Part shown: positions 1-4,377 of the stretch, piece after piece | Layout: each line of letters starts with the position of its first letter | Numbering within the stretch: position 1 is the stretch's first letter | From: a virus | Lineage: Duplodnaviria; Heunggongvirae; Uroviricota; Caudoviricetes | Strand: one strand, 5' to 3' | DNA: 4,377 nucleotides | Virus record (IMG/VR): IMGVR_UViG_2579778674_000005 | Made by a program: the position numbers and the translations under genes | The notes under the pieces: generated by a model | Told to the model about the DNA's origin: nothing | What the model saw: only the letters and a program-made list of their open reading frames with translations | Databases searched by the model: none

Positions 1-57
1 GAGATCAGCACGGCAGACGAAGGGGACGGTGGTCAGGTTGTGGTGATTGGTCGCTGA
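1..57 (+). CDS. I: 3' end of tail assembly protein I (lambda gpI-like); 5' end lies outside the window
   Basis: Frame 1 is open from position 1 to TGA at 55-57 and translates EISTADEGDGGQVVVIGR*. It ends 60 nt upstream of the J start, matching the I-J spacing and gpI C-terminus I recall for lambda. Recollection, not an alignment. Confidence 0.7.
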   Translation, partial: EISTADEGDGGQVVVIGR

Positions 58-75
58 TGAAAAACGTTTTATGTG

Positions 76-103
76 AAACCGCCTCCGGGCGGTTTTGTCG
101 TTT
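76..103 (+). other. Intergenic stem-loop (8-bp stem AAACCGCC / GGCGGTTT, 4-nt loop TCCG) followed by a T-rich tract; possible weak terminator, attenuator or mRNA stability element between I and J
   Basis: Read directly: gAAACCGCCtccgGGCGGTTTtgtcgttt. The inverted repeat is perfect and is followed by TTTTGTCGTTT. Function not established. Confidence 0.3.
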
Positions 104-104
104 A

Positions 105-109
105 TGGAG
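105..109 (+). promoter_or_regulatory. Shine-Dalgarno-like sequence (TGGAG) for J
   Basis: TGGAG lies 8 nt upstream of the J ATG at 118-120; an additional GAGG sits at 113-116. Confidence 0.45.
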
Positions 110-117
110 CGTGAGGA

Positions 118-282
118 ATGGGTAAAGGCAGCAGTAAGGGGCATACTCCGCGCGAAGCGAAGGACAACCTGAAGTCCACGCAGTTGCTGAGTGTGATCGA
201 TGCCATCAGCGAAGGGCCGGTTGAAGGTCCGGTGGATGGATTAAAAAGCGTGCTGCTGAACAGTACGCCGGTGCTGGACTGA
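118..282 (+). CDS. J: J N-terminal fragment (54 codons) ending at the premature in-frame TGA
   Basis: ATG at 118 with an upstream SD; translation MGKGSSKGHTPREAKDNLKSTQLLSVIDAISEGPVEGPVDGLKSVLLNSTPVLD*; TGA at 280-282 lies inside a 12-nt insertion. Confidence 0.6.
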   Translation: MGKGSSKGHTPREAKDNLKSTQLLSVIDAISEGPVEGPVDGLKSVLLNSTPVLD

Positions 283-291
283 GTGCTGGAC
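271..291. repeat. Short tandem duplication: GTGCTGGAC, TGA, GTGCTGGAC (net 12-nt insertion relative to the contiguous reading)
   Basis: Read directly: ccgGTGCTGGACtgaGTGCTGGACactgag. The encoded VLD tripeptide is repeated around a TGA codon. Confidence 0.8.
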
Positions 292-1692
292 ACTGAGGGG
301 AATACCAACATCTCCGGCGTCACGGTGGTGTTCCGGGCCGGTGAGCAGGAGCAGACACCGCCGGAGGGATTTGAATCCTCCGGCTCCGAGGCGGTGCTGG
401 GTACGGAAGTGAAATACGACACGCCGATTACCCGGACCATCACGTCGGCAAACATCGACCGTCTGCGCTTTACCTTCGGTGTGCAGGCACTGGTGGAAAC
501 CACCTCAAAGGGGGACCGGAATCCGTCGGAAGTCCGCCTGCTGGTTCAGATCCAGCGTAATGGTGGCTGGGTGACGGAAAAAGACATCACCATTAAGGGC
601 AAAACCACCTCGCAGTATCTGGCCTCGGTGGTGGTGGGTAACCTGCCGCCGCGCCCGTTTAATATCCGGATGCGCAGGATGACGCCGGACAGCACCACAG
701 ACCAGCTGCAGAACAAAACGCTCTGGTCGTCATACACCGAAATCATCGATGTGAAACAGTGCTACCCGAACACGGCACTGGTCGGCGTACAGGTGGATTC
801 GGAGCAGTTCGGCAGCCAGCAGGTGAGCCGTAATTATCATCTTCGCGGGCGCATTCTGCAGGTGCCGTCGAACTATAACCCGCAGACGCGACAATACAGC
901 GGTATCTGGGACGGAACGTTAAAACCGGCATACAGCAACAACATGGCCTGGTGTCTGTGGGATATGCTGACCCATCCGCGCTACGGCATGGGGAAACGTC
1001 TTGGTGTGGCGGATGTGGATAAATGGGCGCTGTATGTCATCGGCCAGAATTGCGACCAGTCGGTGCCGAACGGCTTTGGCGGCACGGAGCCGCGCATCAC
1101 CTGTAACGCTTACCTGACCACACAGCGCAAGGCGTGGGATGTGCTCAGTGATTTCTGCTCGGCGATGCGCTGTATGCCGGTATGGAACGGGCAGACGCTG
1201 ACGTTCGTGCAGGACCGACCGTCGGATAAGGTGTGGACCTATAACCGCAGTAATGTGGTGATGCCGGATGATGGCGCGCCGTTCCGCTACAGTTTCAGCG
1301 CCCTGAAAGACCGCCATAATGCCGTTGAGGTGAACTGGATTGACCCGAACAACGGTTGGGAGACGGCGACAGAGCTTGTTGAAGATACGCAGGCCATTGC
1401 CCGTTACGGTCGTAATGTCACGAAGATGGATGCCTTTGGTTGTACCAGTCGGGGGCAGGCACACCGAGCCGGGCTGTGGCTGATTAAAACGGAACTGCTG
1501 GAAACGCAGACCGTGGACTTCAGCGTGGGTGCGGAAGGGCTTCGCCATGTACCGGGGGATGTCATTGAAATCTGCGATGATGACTATGCCGGTATCAGCA
1601 CCGGCGGGCGCGTGCTGGCGGTGAACAGCCAGACCCGGACACTGACGCTCGACCGTGAAATCACGCTGCCAAGCCGGGCTGTGGCTGATTAA
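283..1692 (+). CDS. J: J internal fragment (frame 1), from just after the premature TGA to the stop created by the duplication frameshift
   Basis: ORF from the supplied track (GTG at 283). Its translation continues the gpJ sequence (…[33 protein letters not shown]…) and terminates at TAA 1690-1692 inside the second repeat copy, read out of frame. Whether it is translated independently is unknown. Confidence 0.7.
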
Positions 1693-1876
1693 AACGGAAC
1701 TGCTGGAAACGCAGACCGTGGACTTCAGCGTGGGCGCAGAAGGGCTTCGCCATGTACCGGGCGATGTCATTGAAATCTGCGATGATGACTATGCGGGCAT
1801 CAGCACCGGCGGGCGCGTGCTGGCGGTGAACAGCCAGACGCGGACACTGACGCTCGACCGTGAAATCACGCTGCCA
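1467..1876. repeat. Imperfect direct tandem repeat, 2 x 205 nt (copy 1 1467-1671, copy 2 1672-1876), 199/205 identical
   Basis: Manual alignment of the two copies at a fixed 205-nt offset, with no gaps. Mismatches lie at 1530, 1533, 1557, 1590, 1593 and 1635 (copy-1 coordinates). Both copies encode the same peptide, [68 protein letters not shown], in different frames. Confidence 0.9.
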
Positions 1877-3814
1877 GCCTCCGGCACCACGCTGATAAGC
1901 CTGGTTGACGGGCAGGGGAGTCCGGTCAGCGTGGAGGTTCAGTCCGTCACCGACGGCGTGAAGGTAAAAGTGAGCCGGGTTCCTGACGGTGTTGCTGAAT
2001 ACAGCGTGTGGGGGCTTAAGCTGCCGACGCTGCGCCAGCGCCTGTTCCGCTGCGTGAGTATCCGTGAGAACGACGACGGCACGTATGCCATCACTGCCGT
2101 GCAGCATGTGCCGGAGAAAGAGGCCATCGTGGATAACGGGGCGCACTTTGACGGTGATCAGAGCGGCACGGTGAATGGTGTCACGCCGTCAGCAGTGCAG
2201 CATCTGACCGCCGAAGTCACTGCAGACAGCGGGGAATATCAGGTGCTGGCGCGATGGGACACGCCGAAGGTGGTGAAGGGGGTGAGCTTTATGCTTCGCC
2301 TGACTGTGGCAGCAGACGACGGCAGTGAGCGGCTGGTCAGCACGGCCCGGACGACGGAAACCACATACCGCTTCACGCAACTGGCGCTGGGAAACTACAG
2401 GCTGACAGTCAGGGCGGCAAATGCCTGGGGGCAGCAGGGCGATCCGGCGTCGGTATTGTTCCGGATTGCCGCACCGGCAGCACCGTCGCGGATTGAGCTG
2501 ACGCCGGGCTATTTTCAGATAACCGCCACGCCGCATCTTGCGGTTTATGATCCGACGGTACAGTTTGAGTTCTGGTTCTCGGAAAAACGGATTGCTGATA
2601 TCAGGCAGGTTGAAACCAGCGCGCGTTATCTTGGTACGGCGCTGTACTGGATAGCCGCCAGTATCAATATCAAACCGGGCCATGATTATTATTTTTACGT
2701 TCGCAGTGTGAACACCGTTGGCAAATCGGCATTCGTGGAGGCTGTTGGTCAGCCGAGTGATGATGCATCCGGCTATCTGGATTTTTTCAAAGGCGAGATA
2801 GGGAAAACCCATCTGGCTCAGGAGCTGTGGACGCAGATTGATAACGGTCAGCTTGCGCCTGACCTGACTGAAATCAGGACGTCCATTACGGATGTCAGCA
2901 ATGAAATCACGCAGACCGTCAATAAGAAACTGGAAGACCAGAGTGCGGCAATTCAGCAGATACAGAAGGTTCAGGTTGATACAAATAATAACCTGAACAG
3001 CATGTGGGCTGTGAAGCTGCAGCAGATGCAGGACGGACGCCTTTATATCGCGGGTATTGGTGCCGGTATTGAGAACACCCCTGACGGCATGCAGAGTCAG
3101 GTGCTGCTGGCGGCGGACAGGATTGCGATGATTAATCCTGCAAATGGCAACACAAAACCGATGTTTGTTGGTCAGGGTGATCAGATATTCATGAATGAAG
3201 TGTTCCTGAAATATCTGACGGCTCCCACCATTACCAGCGGCGGTAATCATCCGGCATTTTCCCTGACACCGGACGGGCGACTGACGGCGAAAAATGCGGA
3301 TATCAGTGGCAGTGTGAATGCTAACGCCGGGACGCTCAACAACGTTACGATAAATGAGAACTGTCAGATTAAAGGGAAACTGTCAGCCAACCAGATTGAA
3401 GGCGATATTGTCAAAACAGTGGGTAAGGCTTTTCCGCGGGACTCCCGGGCACCGGAGCGGTGGCCATCAGGGACCATTACCGTCAGGATTTATGACGATC
3501 AGCCTTTTGACAGGCAAATTGTTATTCCGGCGGTGGCATTCTGCGGCGCTAAACATGAGCGGGAGAATAACGATATTTATTCGTCATGCCGCCTGATAGT
3601 GAAGAAAAATGGTGCTGAAATTTATAACCGTACCGCGCTGGATAATACGCTGATTTACAGTGGTGTTATTGATATGCCAGCTGGTCACGGCCACATGACG
3701 CTGGAGTTTTCGGTGTCAGCATGGCTGGTAAATGACTGGTATCCCACAGCAAGTATCAGCGATTTGCTGGTTGTGGTGATGAAGAAAGCCACCGCAGGCA
3801 TCAGTATCAGCTGA
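1655..3814 (+). CDS. J: J C-terminal fragment (frame 2); the J-homologous part starts at about 1676 and includes FN3-like repeats and a divergent C-terminal receptor-binding region
   Basis: ORF from the supplied track (GTG at 1655). From [14 protein letters not shown]… onward it repeats and then continues the gpJ sequence, ending at TGA 3812-3814. The first 7 codons are not J-derived in this frame. Confidence 0.7.
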
Positions 3815-3832
3815 ATTTTATAACCCATATAC

Positions 3833-3857
3833 GGGCGCCAGAAATGGCGCCTTTTTT
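3833..3857 (+). terminator. Rho-independent terminator downstream of J (lambda tJ-like)
   Basis: A perfect GC stem (GGCGCC / GGCGCC, palindromic) with a 6-nt loop AGAAAT, followed immediately by TTTTTTATT, begins 19 nt after the J stop. On the minus strand the hairpin is followed by CGTATAT rather than a U-tract, so it is oriented for + strand transcripts. Confidence 0.8.
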
Positions 3858-3881: not shown

Positions 3882-4377
3882 ATGCGTAAAGTTTGTGCAG
3901 CCATTTTGTCCGCAGCCATCTGTCTGGCCGTATCCGGTGCGCCTGCATGGGCGTCTGAGCAGCAGGCCACACTGAGCGCAGGGTATCTTCATGCCCGTAC
4001 GAACGCTCCCGGCAGCGATAATCTGAACGGGATTAACGTGAAATACCGTTATGAGTTTACGGACACGCTGGGGCTGATTACGTCATTCAGTTATGCCAAC
4101 GCTGAAGATGAGCAAAAAACGCATTACAGCGATACCCGCTGGCATGAGGATTTCGTGCGTAACCGCTGGTTCAGCGTGATGGCGGGGCCGTCTGTGCGCG
4201 TGAATGAATGGTTCAGCGCGTATGCGATGGCGGGTATGGCTTACAGCCGTGTGTCGACTTTCTCCGGTTCGACTTTCTCCGGAGATTATATCCGCGTAAC
4301 TGACAACAAGGGGAAAACGCACGATGTGCTGACCGGAAGTGATGACGGTCGCCACAGCAACACGTCTCTGGCGTGGG
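3882..4377 (+). CDS. lom: Outer membrane protein Lom (Ail/Lom/OmpX/PagC beta-barrel family); 3' end lies outside the window
   Basis: ATG at 3882 with SD; frame open to the window edge with no stop. Translation MRKVCAAILSAAICLAVSGAPAWA|SEQQATLSAGYLHARTNAPGSDNLNGINVKYRYEFTDTLGL… has a typical Sec signal peptide with an AWA cleavage motif and matches lambda Lom as I recall it, in the same position immediately downstream of J. It is absent from the supplied ORF track, presumably because it has no stop in the window. Confidence 0.85.
   Translation, partial: MRKVCAAILSAAICLAVSGAPAWASEQQATLSAGYLHARTNAPGSDNLNGINVKYRYEFTDTLGLITSFSYANAEDEQKTHYSDTRWHEDFVRNRWFSVMAGPSVRVNEWFSAYAMAGMAYSRVSTFSGSTFSGDYIRVTDNKGKTHDVLTGSDDGRHSNTSLAW
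4254..4283. repeat. 15-nt tandem duplication within lom (TCGACTTTCTCCGGT / TCGACTTTCTCCGGA), in frame, encoding STFSG twice
   Basis: Read directly; 14/15 identical, and the single difference (GGT vs GGA) is synonymous. As I recall it, lambda Lom has a single STFSG at this position (…SRVSTFSGDY…). Confidence 0.8.

What the first reader, a model, noticed from the sequence alone, without database searches (positions are those of the whole stretch)
118..3814. Removing the two insertions restores an intact 1159-codon J ORF, so inactivation is recent or artefactual
The J span is 3697 nt. Subtracting the 12-nt and 205-nt insertions leaves 3480 nt, exactly 1160 codons, and the supplied ORF track shows no other stop in the relevant frames. 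The gene is therefore two simple events away from intact, which is unlike a long-decayed cryptic prophage gene. This makes the locus a candidate for reversion to a functional tail tip, for being part of a recently active prophage, or for being a sequencing or assembly problem.
Basis: inference. Interest (0 to 1): 0.5.

Follow-up and report, generated by a model that had tools for sequence, protein, structure and literature searches.

The report
Assembly-made breaks in phage J gene
The phage tail-tip gene J in this window is broken only by small imperfect tandem repeats that almost certainly arose when short reads from two similar prophage copies were assembled, so the "inactivation" is most likely a draft-genome artefact and not biology.

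Summary
J spans 118-3814 (3697 nt). Removing a 12-nt and a 205-nt insert gives a 3480-nt open frame of 1159 codons with no stops. It differs at 5 residues from the ETEC H10407 gpJ and has the full gpJ domain series.

The inserts are not simple events. They are imperfect tandem duplications, and a third one (15 nt) lies in lom. The window is the whole of a 4377-bp contig (AYKD01000101.1) of the E. coli FCH1 draft, built from 90-bp Illumina reads with SOAPdenovo v1.05.

- No junction was found in any collection searched: all three are absent from 5,426 complete E. coli genomes and IMG/VR, and each was also scanned against metagenome contigs or GTDB representatives without a J-gene hit.
- Each break point sits on a site that distinguishes two natural J/lom allele types.
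- The paired copies carry different alleles' bases, and the six internal differences in the 205-nt repeat are all synonymous.
- The 5' 1.5 kb is a clean block chimera of two allele types with no private bases, unlike seven real alleles.

Best reading (about 0.85): reads from two co-resident prophage alleles were chained with unmerged overlaps. Real out-of-register recombination is not excluded (about 0.1). Interest is low.

The parts
1..57 (+). 3' end of the tail assembly protein I gene; the contig starts inside it
   Evidence: Aligns to the end of ETEC_RS06780 'tail assembly protein' in H10407 (L001 14485-15057; window position 1 corresponds to L001 15001).
118..282 (+). J fragment 1: 54 codons, then a TGA created by the 12-nt insert
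   Evidence: ORF list. The same 54 residues are the N-terminus of gpJ in H10407 and many other genomes.
271..282 (+). 12-nt insert GTGCTGGACTGA, a garbled repeat of the following GTGCTGGACA; it is in frame but introduces the stop at 280-282
   Evidence: Gap in all 9 natural alleles. Absent from 5,426 complete E. coli genomes and IMG/VR. Flanked by polymorphic sites 270 (G/A) and 293 (C/G); the two copies carry G (270) and A (282) at the first of these. Contigs of many other drafts end exactly here.
283..1692 (+). J fragment 2 (469-codon ORF). It stays in the J frame through copy 1, then runs out of frame into a TAA at 1690-1692
   Evidence: Pfam FNIII-A_GpJ, Phage-tail_3. This exact product occurs on one contig only among about 15 billion proteins.
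1467..1671 (+). 205-nt repeat, copy 1, carrying the WP8-S17-type ('A') allele bases
   Evidence: Follows the A-type base at 1533, 1557, 1590, 1593 and 1635. The best natural matches (99.0%) are the same genomes that best match the 5' half.
1672..1876 (+). 205-nt repeat, copy 2, carrying the H10407/DX6-type ('B') allele bases. The junction 1671|1672 shifts the frame by +1
   Evidence: 100% identical to natural alleles in DX6, EC71 and YDC107. Everything downstream of 1738 is identical to H10407. Copy 2 starts exactly on polymorphic site 1467/1672 (A/C), and copy 1 stops just before polymorphic site 1877 (G/T). The junction is absent from all collections searched.
1655..3814 (+). J fragment 3 (719-codon ORF from an incidental GTG); from 1672 on it is the true J frame through to the natural stop
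   Evidence: Pfam Ig_J, Ig_J_second, Phage_Tail_Tip, Ig_GpJ_C. Occurs on one contig only.
3833..3862 (+). Terminator-like hairpin with a T-run between J and lom
   Evidence: 8-pair stem, 6 G-C pairs, T-rich tail. This is a consensus match only.
3882..4377 (+). 5' 496 nt of lom (Ail/Lom outer-membrane beta-barrel); it runs off the contig end
   Evidence: PF06316 Ail_Lom.
4253..4267 (+). 15-nt insert in lom (in frame, +5 residues). It is the interval between two SNPs written twice: once with the A-type base (G at 4253) and once with the B-type base (T at 4268)
   Evidence: Absent from complete E. coli genomes, IMG/VR and metagenome contigs. Bounded by polymorphic sites 4253/4268 (G/T) and 4283 (A/G).

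Best explanation
The window is a mis-assembled repeat contig. E. coli FCH1 most likely carries at least two lambdoid prophages whose J-lom regions are about 97-98% identical over the first 2 kb of J. One resembles the WP8-S17-ESBL-05 allele ('A'). The other is essentially identical to the ETEC H10407/DX6 allele ('B').

SOAPdenovo assembled the 90-bp reads from both copies into one small scaffold. Where the alleles are similar it alternated between them, giving a block chimera. At three graph forks it chained a piece that ended just before one SNP to a piece that began at the previous SNP, without merging the overlap. The overlaps of 10-11, 205 and 15 nt were therefore written twice.

Two of these false tandem duplications break the J reading frame: one creates a TGA and one causes a +1 frameshift. 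The underlying J genes are probably intact tail-tip (host-specificity) genes.

Shown:
- The anatomy of the three junctions and their uniqueness.
- The allele content of each copy.
- The provenance of the contig and the assembly method.
- The intactness of the repaired protein.

Inferred:
- That two alleles co-reside in FCH1.
- The exact assembler step that produced the junctions.
For: 1. Provenance. The window equals the complete 4377-bp contig AYKD01000101.1 of GCA_000511545.1. AYKD01 is the draft of E. coli FCH1 (PMC6455142). FCH1 was sequenced as 90-bp paired-end Illumina reads and assembled with SOAPdenovo v1.05, k 21-63, chosen to minimise scaffold number. The same paper reports that near-identical gene copies hampered assembly and that small scaffolds were enriched in phage and mobile genes (PMC4270446).
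2. Copy number. J-like sequence is normally multi-copy: the median is 2-3 places per complete E. coli genome and the maximum 14. An isolated 4.4-kb J-lom contig is what a repeat yields.
3. Uniqueness. There are three inserts in 4.4 kb, and the closest homologues lack all of them (4145 against 4377 nt). None of the junctions occurs in 5,426 complete E. coli genomes or IMG/VR. The 205-nt and 15-nt junctions are also absent from metagenome contigs. The 205-nt junction is absent from GTDB representatives, and the 12-nt junction's 21-mer hit only unrelated MAGs there. The two junction-bearing products occur on this contig alone among about 15 billion proteins.
4. Copies are two alleles. The copies are not identical, and their differences are natural allelic variants. 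All 6 internal differences in the 205-nt repeat are synonymous. Copy 2 is an exact natural allele. Copy 1 follows the A-type allele at 5 of 6 informative sites. The 12-nt and 15-nt repeats carry G then A, and G then T, at sites where natural alleles differ in just that way.
5. Break points. In all three junctions the right-hand piece starts exactly on a polymorphic site. In two of them the left-hand piece stops immediately before the next polymorphic site. With local polymorphism densities of 0.09-0.21, the chance of this is roughly 5e-5 (my rough, post hoc estimate).
6. Chimera. From 1 to 1470 the window follows A or B at all 51 informative sites, in 8 blocks, with 0 private bases. Seven real alleles scored the same way show 16-21 switches and 12-23 private sites. 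No natural allele matches this half better than 98.4%, whereas the 3' half has 99.9% matches.
7. Hotspot. Contigs of many other draft assemblies end at GTGCTGGACA, the site of the 12-nt insert, and L003 has a scaffold gap there.
8. Literature. SOAPdenovo gap closure raised indel errors from 4 to 25 on an E. coli benchmark, and contig edges are called a frequent source of misassemblies (PMC3446322). SOAPdenovo2 mishandles overlapping contigs within scaffolds (PMC5368935).
Against: - No reads were available, so no junction has been shown to lack read support.
- Co-residence of two J alleles in FCH1 is inferred, not observed. No other contig of the assembly could be retrieved.
- Some allele switches occur between SNPs only 3-22 nt apart (267/270, 638/660, 1635/1641). 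That is shorter than most k values used, so a simple bubble-popping model with exactly these two parents does not explain every switch. The true parents may themselves be mosaics.
- The two bases TG at 280-281 in the 12-nt junction are not cleanly explained.
- The two papers read document SOAPdenovo indel and overlap errors in general, not this exact duplication signature.
- Natural lambdoid J genes are mosaic, so a real recombinant could also look like a two-parent chimera.
Confidence: 0.85

Rival explanations
1. The lesions are real. In FCH1, two co-resident (or one resident and one incoming) lambdoid phages recombined out of register within J and lom. This left a hybrid J with tandem duplications whose copies derive from different parents. 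The gene is a very recent pseudogene that could revert by deletion between the repeats.
For: The copies carry different natural alleles' bases, and the flanks switch from the A-type to the B-type allele at the 205-nt junction. A single unequal exchange between two alleles would give exactly this. The repaired gene is intact. Multiple J copies per genome are common.
Against: It needs three independent out-of-register joins within 4.4 kb, each with essentially no homology at the join (1671|1672 and 4267|4268 have no microhomology) and each landing exactly on allele-discriminating SNPs. None was seen in any collection searched. The sequence comes from a short repeat contig of a short-read SOAPdenovo draft. 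Contig ends in other drafts cluster at the 12-nt site, which points to graph topology and not to biology.
Confidence: 0.1
2. The duplications are genuine slippage-type tandem duplications in a single J gene, and the copies diverged afterwards by mutation, as in an ageing cryptic prophage gene.
For: Tandem duplications do arise by replication slippage, and J pseudogenes are common in cryptic prophages (general knowledge).
Against: All 6 differences between the copies are synonymous and correspond to existing allelic variants. The 2.5 kb downstream is 100% identical to H10407, which leaves no time for 3% divergence. There are no other stops or frameshifts. The 205-nt junction has no microhomology of the kind slippage uses.
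Confidence: 0.02
3. Base-calling or read-level sequencing errors, rather than assembly, produced the interruptions.
For: The unexplained TG at 280-281 could be a low-quality contig end.
Against: Illumina read errors are substitutions or short indels. They do not produce 205-nt or 15-nt duplications whose copies carry alternative natural alleles. At more than 600 Mbp per strain (PMC4270446), random errors would not reach the consensus.
Confidence: 0.03

Closest known systems
Phage lambda tip attachment / host-specificity protein J (gpJ, TipJ family; PDB 8iyk and related), specifically the ETEC H10407 prophage allele WP_000515474.1
   Same: After repair: the same length as the H10407 allele (1159 aa) with 5 residue differences. 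The same Pfam series: FNIII-A_GpJ, Phage-tail_3, Ig_J, Ig_J_second, Phage_Tail_Tip, Ig_GpJ_C. A 2168-bit match to lambda gpJ chain 8iyk_J. The same I-J-lom gene order.
   Different: As deposited it is split into three ORFs by a TGA and a +1 frameshift. The 5' 1.5 kb is a block hybrid of two allele types not found intact anywhere. The C-terminal receptor-binding third aligns best to solved gpJ C-terminal fragments other than the lambda full-length chain, whose best stretch is 1-836. Its receptor specificity may therefore differ from lambda's (inference).
False tandem duplications and indel misassemblies at contig edges and closed gaps in short-read de Bruijn drafts (SOAPdenovo scaffolding and gap filling)
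   Same: A short-read SOAPdenovo v1.05 draft and a small repeat scaffold rich in phage genes. Duplicated overlaps at points where co-resident alleles fork. The literature reports excess indel and misjoin errors after SOAPdenovo gap closure and trouble with overlapping contigs (PMC3446322; PMC5368935).
   Different: The papers read here do not describe this exact signature, in which an overlap is written twice with each copy carrying a different allele's SNP. The assembler step responsible is inferred. No read-level confirmation is available.
Genuine J pseudogenes of cryptic lambdoid prophages (for example IS-interrupted J in strain AW1.7)
   Same: An interrupted J next to lom in an E. coli genome. 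An IS2-split J is annotated in AW1.7 (hits H21 and H22).
   Different: There is no IS element, no deletion, no accumulated stops, and no presence of the lesions in any related genome. The lesions are allele-hybrid tandem repeats.

Membership tests
Lambda gpJ / TipJ tail tip attachment protein | Full-length colinearity with characterised gpJ proteins | tested here: met
   The repaired product is 1159 aa with no stops and 5 differences from H10407 gpJ. It scores 2168 bits against lambda gpJ 8iyk_J.
Lambda gpJ / TipJ tail tip attachment protein | Complete gpJ domain series, from the N-terminal FNIII-A domain to the C-terminal receptor-binding Ig domain | tested here: met
   Pfam PF24801, PF13550, PF24421, PF24489, PF09327 and PF12421, all far above their cut-offs and covering residues 86-1159.
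Lambda gpJ / TipJ tail tip attachment protein | Position in the tail module: downstream of I, upstream of lom | tested here: met
   The 3' end of I lies at 1-57 and lom starts at 3882. The order matches H10407 and phage records.
Lambda gpJ / TipJ tail tip attachment protein | A single uninterrupted reading frame in the record as deposited | tested here: not met
   Three ORFs, 118-282, 283-1692 and 1655-3814. The cause is the 12-nt and 205-nt inserts.
Lambda gpJ / TipJ tail tip attachment protein | Functions in adsorption (receptor binding, tail tip assembly) | not testable with these tools
   This needs phage induction, plaque or adsorption assays.
Assembly artefact: false tandem duplication from unmerged overlaps of repeat contigs | The sequence derives from a short-read graph assembly, and the locus is a short, isolated repeat contig | tested here: met
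   The window is the whole contig AYKD01000101.1, 4377 bp. 90-bp Illumina reads, SOAPdenovo v1.05.
Assembly artefact: false tandem duplication from unmerged overlaps of repeat contigs | The junctions are found in no independent genome or assembly | tested here: met
   5,426 complete E. coli genomes; IMG/VR; metagenome contigs, 205-nt and 15-nt junctions; GTDB representatives, 205-nt junction; 12-nt 21-mer: only unrelated MAG hits; exact protein look-up.
Assembly artefact: false tandem duplication from unmerged overlaps of repeat contigs | The duplicate copies represent different co-assembled alleles, and the break points sit at graph forks (allele-discriminating sites) | tested here: met
   The copies carry A-type against B-type bases. 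All three right-hand pieces start on polymorphic sites. Six of six internal differences are synonymous.
Assembly artefact: false tandem duplication from unmerged overlaps of repeat contigs | Two or more near-identical copies of the locus are present in the same genome | tested here: inconclusive
   Inferred from the isolated contig, the two-parent chimera and the usual 2-3 J copies per genome. Other FCH1 contigs could not be retrieved.
Assembly artefact: false tandem duplication from unmerged overlaps of repeat contigs | No reads span the junctions, with anomalous depth or mixed bases in the collapsed part | not testable with these tools
Genuine tandem-duplication pseudogene | Copies identical at birth, or later differences random with respect to codon position and to existing alleles | tested here: not met
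   There are 6 internal differences in 205 nt, all synonymous and matching natural alleles, while the 2.5 kb downstream is identical to H10407.

The most novel reading that the evidence does not exclude
The three duplications are real products of out-of-register exchange between two co-resident prophage J-lom alleles. They would give a hybrid tail-tip gene held 'off' by repeats that can be deleted by homologous recombination, making it a reversible switch of prophage infectivity or a snapshot of tail-fibre module shuffling in progress.
Probability: 0.08. Interest if true: 0.35.

Novelty: not a real feature. Interest (0 to 1): 0.08.

Why it matters
If the breaks are artefacts, as argued, the biological content is ordinary: an intact-looking lambda-type J gene next to lom in an E. 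coli prophage.

The practical lesson is about pseudogene calls in short-read drafts. Prophage tail genes are multi-copy, so they come out as small chimeric contigs. Frame-breaking 'insertions' that are imperfect tandem repeats bounded by allelic SNPs should be treated as assembly errors before any claim of gene inactivation, reversion potential or prophage decay. The signature found here is a simple sequence-only screen for such errors: the overlap is written twice, each copy carries a different allele's base, and the break points fall on polymorphic sites.

Tried and rejected
- Looked for the window in 5,426 complete E. coli genomes and 50,697 phage records. There is no exact source; the best match is 98.5% (H10407) and lacks all three inserts.
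- Scanned GTDB representatives, IMG/VR and metagenome contigs for the junction strings. Nothing relevant turned up. The 21-mer of the 12-nt junction hit five Bryobacterales and cyanobacterial MAG contigs. Their flanks are at random identity (7-12 of 40) and nothing else aligns, so these are unrelated sequences.
- Asked whether the exact repaired 1159-aa protein exists intact anywhere, for example in the sister isolate FCP1. It does not. This fits a chimera but does not prove one.
- 'samples_with_this_contig: 2' raised the possibility of an independent assembly carrying the same junctions. The exact-protein look-up shows one contig only, so I take it to be a duplicate listing. This is not verified.
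- Considered microhomology-mediated slippage for the 205-nt repeat. My first pass suggested an AGCC microhomology, but with the break placed by colinearity (1671|1672) there is none.
- One search contained a scripting error: a failed string search was used as an index. Only its list of copy-1 versus copy-2 differences is valid. One search failed on a file name. Both were redone.
- Tried to learn from PMC4270446 whether FCH1 and FCP1 are clonal. The passages found state this only for farm A.
- A strict bubble-popping model with exactly WP8-S17 and H10407 as parents was considered. It does not explain the switches at SNP spacings of 3-22 nt, so the parents are described only as 'types'.
Full report
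**What is in the window.** The window carries four things:
- the last 57 nt of a lambdoid tail assembly gene I;
- a J-like gene from 118 to 3814;
- a terminator-like hairpin at 3833-3852;
- the first 496 nt of lom, which runs off the end.

J is read as three ORFs: 118-282, 283-1692 and 1655-3814.

**Checking the observation.** The closest complete-genome homologue is the ETEC H10407 prophage, whose gpJ is 3480 nt (1159 codons plus stop). A base-by-base alignment shows exactly three inserts in the window and no deletions: 12 nt at 271-282, 205 nt, and 15 nt at 4253-4267 in lom. 3697 - 12 - 205 = 3480.

Every way of excising the two J inserts gives 1159 codons without an internal stop. The product differs from H10407 gpJ at 5 residues. 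It has the complete gpJ domain series and matches lambda gpJ structures strongly.

**What the inserts really are.** None of them is foreign DNA. All three are imperfect tandem duplications.
- The 205-nt unit is 1467-1671 / 1672-1876, and its copies differ at six internal positions.
- The 15-nt unit in lom is repeated with its first base changed (G, then T).
- The 12-nt insert is a garbled copy of the adjacent GTGCTGGACA.

**Provenance.** Exact look-up of the 719-aa and 469-aa fragments returns one record only. That record is contig AYKD01000101.1 of GCA_000511545.1, which is 4377 bp long and identical to the window.
[quoted passage not shown] 2014 (PMC4270446).
- It was sequenced as 90-bp paired-end Illumina reads and assembled with SOAPdenovo v1.05. 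The k-mer (21-63) was chosen to minimise scaffold number.
- The same paper notes that near-identical gene copies hampered correct assembly. It also notes that small scaffolds were enriched in phage and mobile-element genes.
- J-like DNA is normally multi-copy in E. coli, with a median of 2-3 places per genome and up to 14. An isolated 4.4-kb J-lom contig is what a repeat yields.

**Uniqueness.**
- None of the three junctions occurs in 5,426 complete E. coli genomes. The best places are always two pieces spanning the unduplicated length.
- All three are also absent from IMG/VR.
- The 205-nt and 15-nt junctions are absent from metagenome contigs.
- The 205-nt junction is absent from GTDB representatives.
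- Five hits to the 12-nt junction's 21-mer in Bryobacterales and cyanobacterial MAGs are unrelated sequences.
- The junction-bearing products occur on this contig alone among about 15 billion proteins.

**The two copies are two alleles.**
- Downstream of 1738 the window is identical to H10407 (0 differences in 2379 + 110 nt). Upstream it has 30 substitutions.
- Copy 2 of the 205-nt repeat is an exact natural allele, found in DX6, EC71 and YDC107.
- Copy 1 is closest to the WP8-S17-ESBL-05 group, which also best matches the 5' half. It follows that allele at 5 of 6 informative sites.
- All six internal differences are synonymous. That is expected of two functional alleles and is very unlikely for mutations accumulating in a pseudogene.

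**Break points sit on allele-discriminating sites.** I aligned the window with nine natural alleles.
- In every junction the right-hand piece begins exactly on a polymorphic site: 282 (equivalent to 270, G/A), 1672 (equivalent to 1467, A/C) and 4268 (equivalent to 4253, T/G).
- In the 205-nt and 15-nt junctions the left-hand piece stops immediately before the next polymorphic site: 1877 (G/T) and 4283 (A/G).
- In the 12-nt case it stops two bases before 293 (C/G).
- In the 12-nt and 15-nt repeats the two copies carry the two alternative natural bases.

With local polymorphism densities of 0.09-0.21, five exact coincidences have a chance of roughly 5e-5. This is a rough, post hoc estimate of mine.

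Independently, contigs of many other draft assemblies end at GTGCTGGACA, the site of the 12-nt insert. One scaffold (L003) has its N-gap there. This marks the site as a recurrent assembly-graph fork.

**The 5' half is a clean two-parent chimera.** I scored the window against WP8-S17 ('A') and H10407 ('B').
- From 1 to 1470 the window follows one or the other at all 51 informative sites, in 8 blocks, with no private base.
- Seven genuine alleles scored the same way show 16-21 switches and 12-23 private sites.
- No natural allele matches this half better than 98.4%, whereas the 3' half has 99.9% matches.
- The exact repaired protein is not on record.
- Beyond about 2 kb, where A and B are too divergent to be merged, the window is purely B.

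**Interpretation.** The most economical account is that FCH1 holds at least two lambdoid prophages with similar J-lom regions. SOAPdenovo collapsed them into one small scaffold. It alternated between alleles where they are similar. At three forks it chained overlapping pieces without merging the overlaps.

Published benchmarks show that SOAPdenovo gap closure inflates indel and misjoin errors in bacterial assemblies and that contig edges are error-prone (PMC3446322). SOAPdenovo2 also mishandles overlapping contigs inside scaffolds (PMC5368935).

I put this reading at about 0.85. What is shown is the anatomy, uniqueness, allele content and provenance. What is inferred is the co-residence of two alleles and the exact assembler step.

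**Rivals.**
- *Real out-of-register recombination between co-resident alleles* would also produce hybrid tandem repeats. It needs three homology-free joins within 4.4 kb, each landing on allelic SNPs, and all seen only in one short-read repeat contig (about 0.1).
- *Slippage followed by divergence* is contradicted by the synonymous, allele-matching differences and by the 100% identical downstream sequence (about 0.02).
- *Read-level error* cannot make 205-nt allele-hybrid repeats (about 0.03).

**Weak points.**
- No reads were available.
- Some allele switches lie between SNPs only 3-22 nt apart.
- The TG at 280-281 is unexplained.

**Verdict.** The gene itself is an ordinary member of the lambda gpJ family, and its interruptions are most likely not a real feature. 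Interest is low.

Noticed in passing
It is 15 nt, in frame, and adds 5 residues to Lom (STFSG written twice). The first copy has the G variant and the second the T variant of a natural G/T polymorphism. The unit ends just before the next polymorphic site, 4283.
   Followed up: yes
J nt ~163 (window ~280); loci L003-L012: The 54-residue N-terminal J fragment is listed in 892 blocks of the public collection. In nine of the ten places shown this is because the contig ends at ...GTGCTGGACA(G); in the tenth (L003) a scaffold N-gap starts there. The site looks like a recurrent contig-break point in E. coli drafts, just before a C/G polymorphism.
   Followed up: partly
window 1-1470: The 5' part of the contig is a block mosaic of WP8-S17-type and H10407-type sequence: 8 blocks and no private bases. 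Real alleles scored the same way have 12-23 private sites. No natural allele exceeds 98.4% identity to it.
   Followed up: yes
repaired J residues 866-1159 (window ~2930-3811): The C-terminal receptor-binding third aligns best to solved gpJ C-terminal fragments (9wca 'A8 gpJ 713', 8xcj), not to the full-length lambda chain, whose best stretch is 1-836. This allele may therefore recognise a different receptor from lambda's.
   Followed up: no
window 74-101: A G+C-rich hairpin followed by a T-rich run (aaaccgcc-tccg-ggcggttt tgtcgttt) lies between the I stop and the J start. It is conserved with small changes in L003. The terminator scan did not list it, and I did not examine its role.
   Followed up: no
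L001 3157-5772 (ETEC H10407 prophage): The H10407 prophage that carries the near-identical J has an IS66-family element (tnpA, tnpB, ISCro1 transposase) inserted between the head decoration and major capsid genes. That prophage may itself be defective.
   Followed up: no
L021 5322-5364, L024 3586-3628 (cyanobacterial MAGs): The 12-mer GTGCTGGACTGA occurs there as a short tandem array. It is unrelated to J, and it explains the stray hits to the junction 21-mer.
   Followed up: partly
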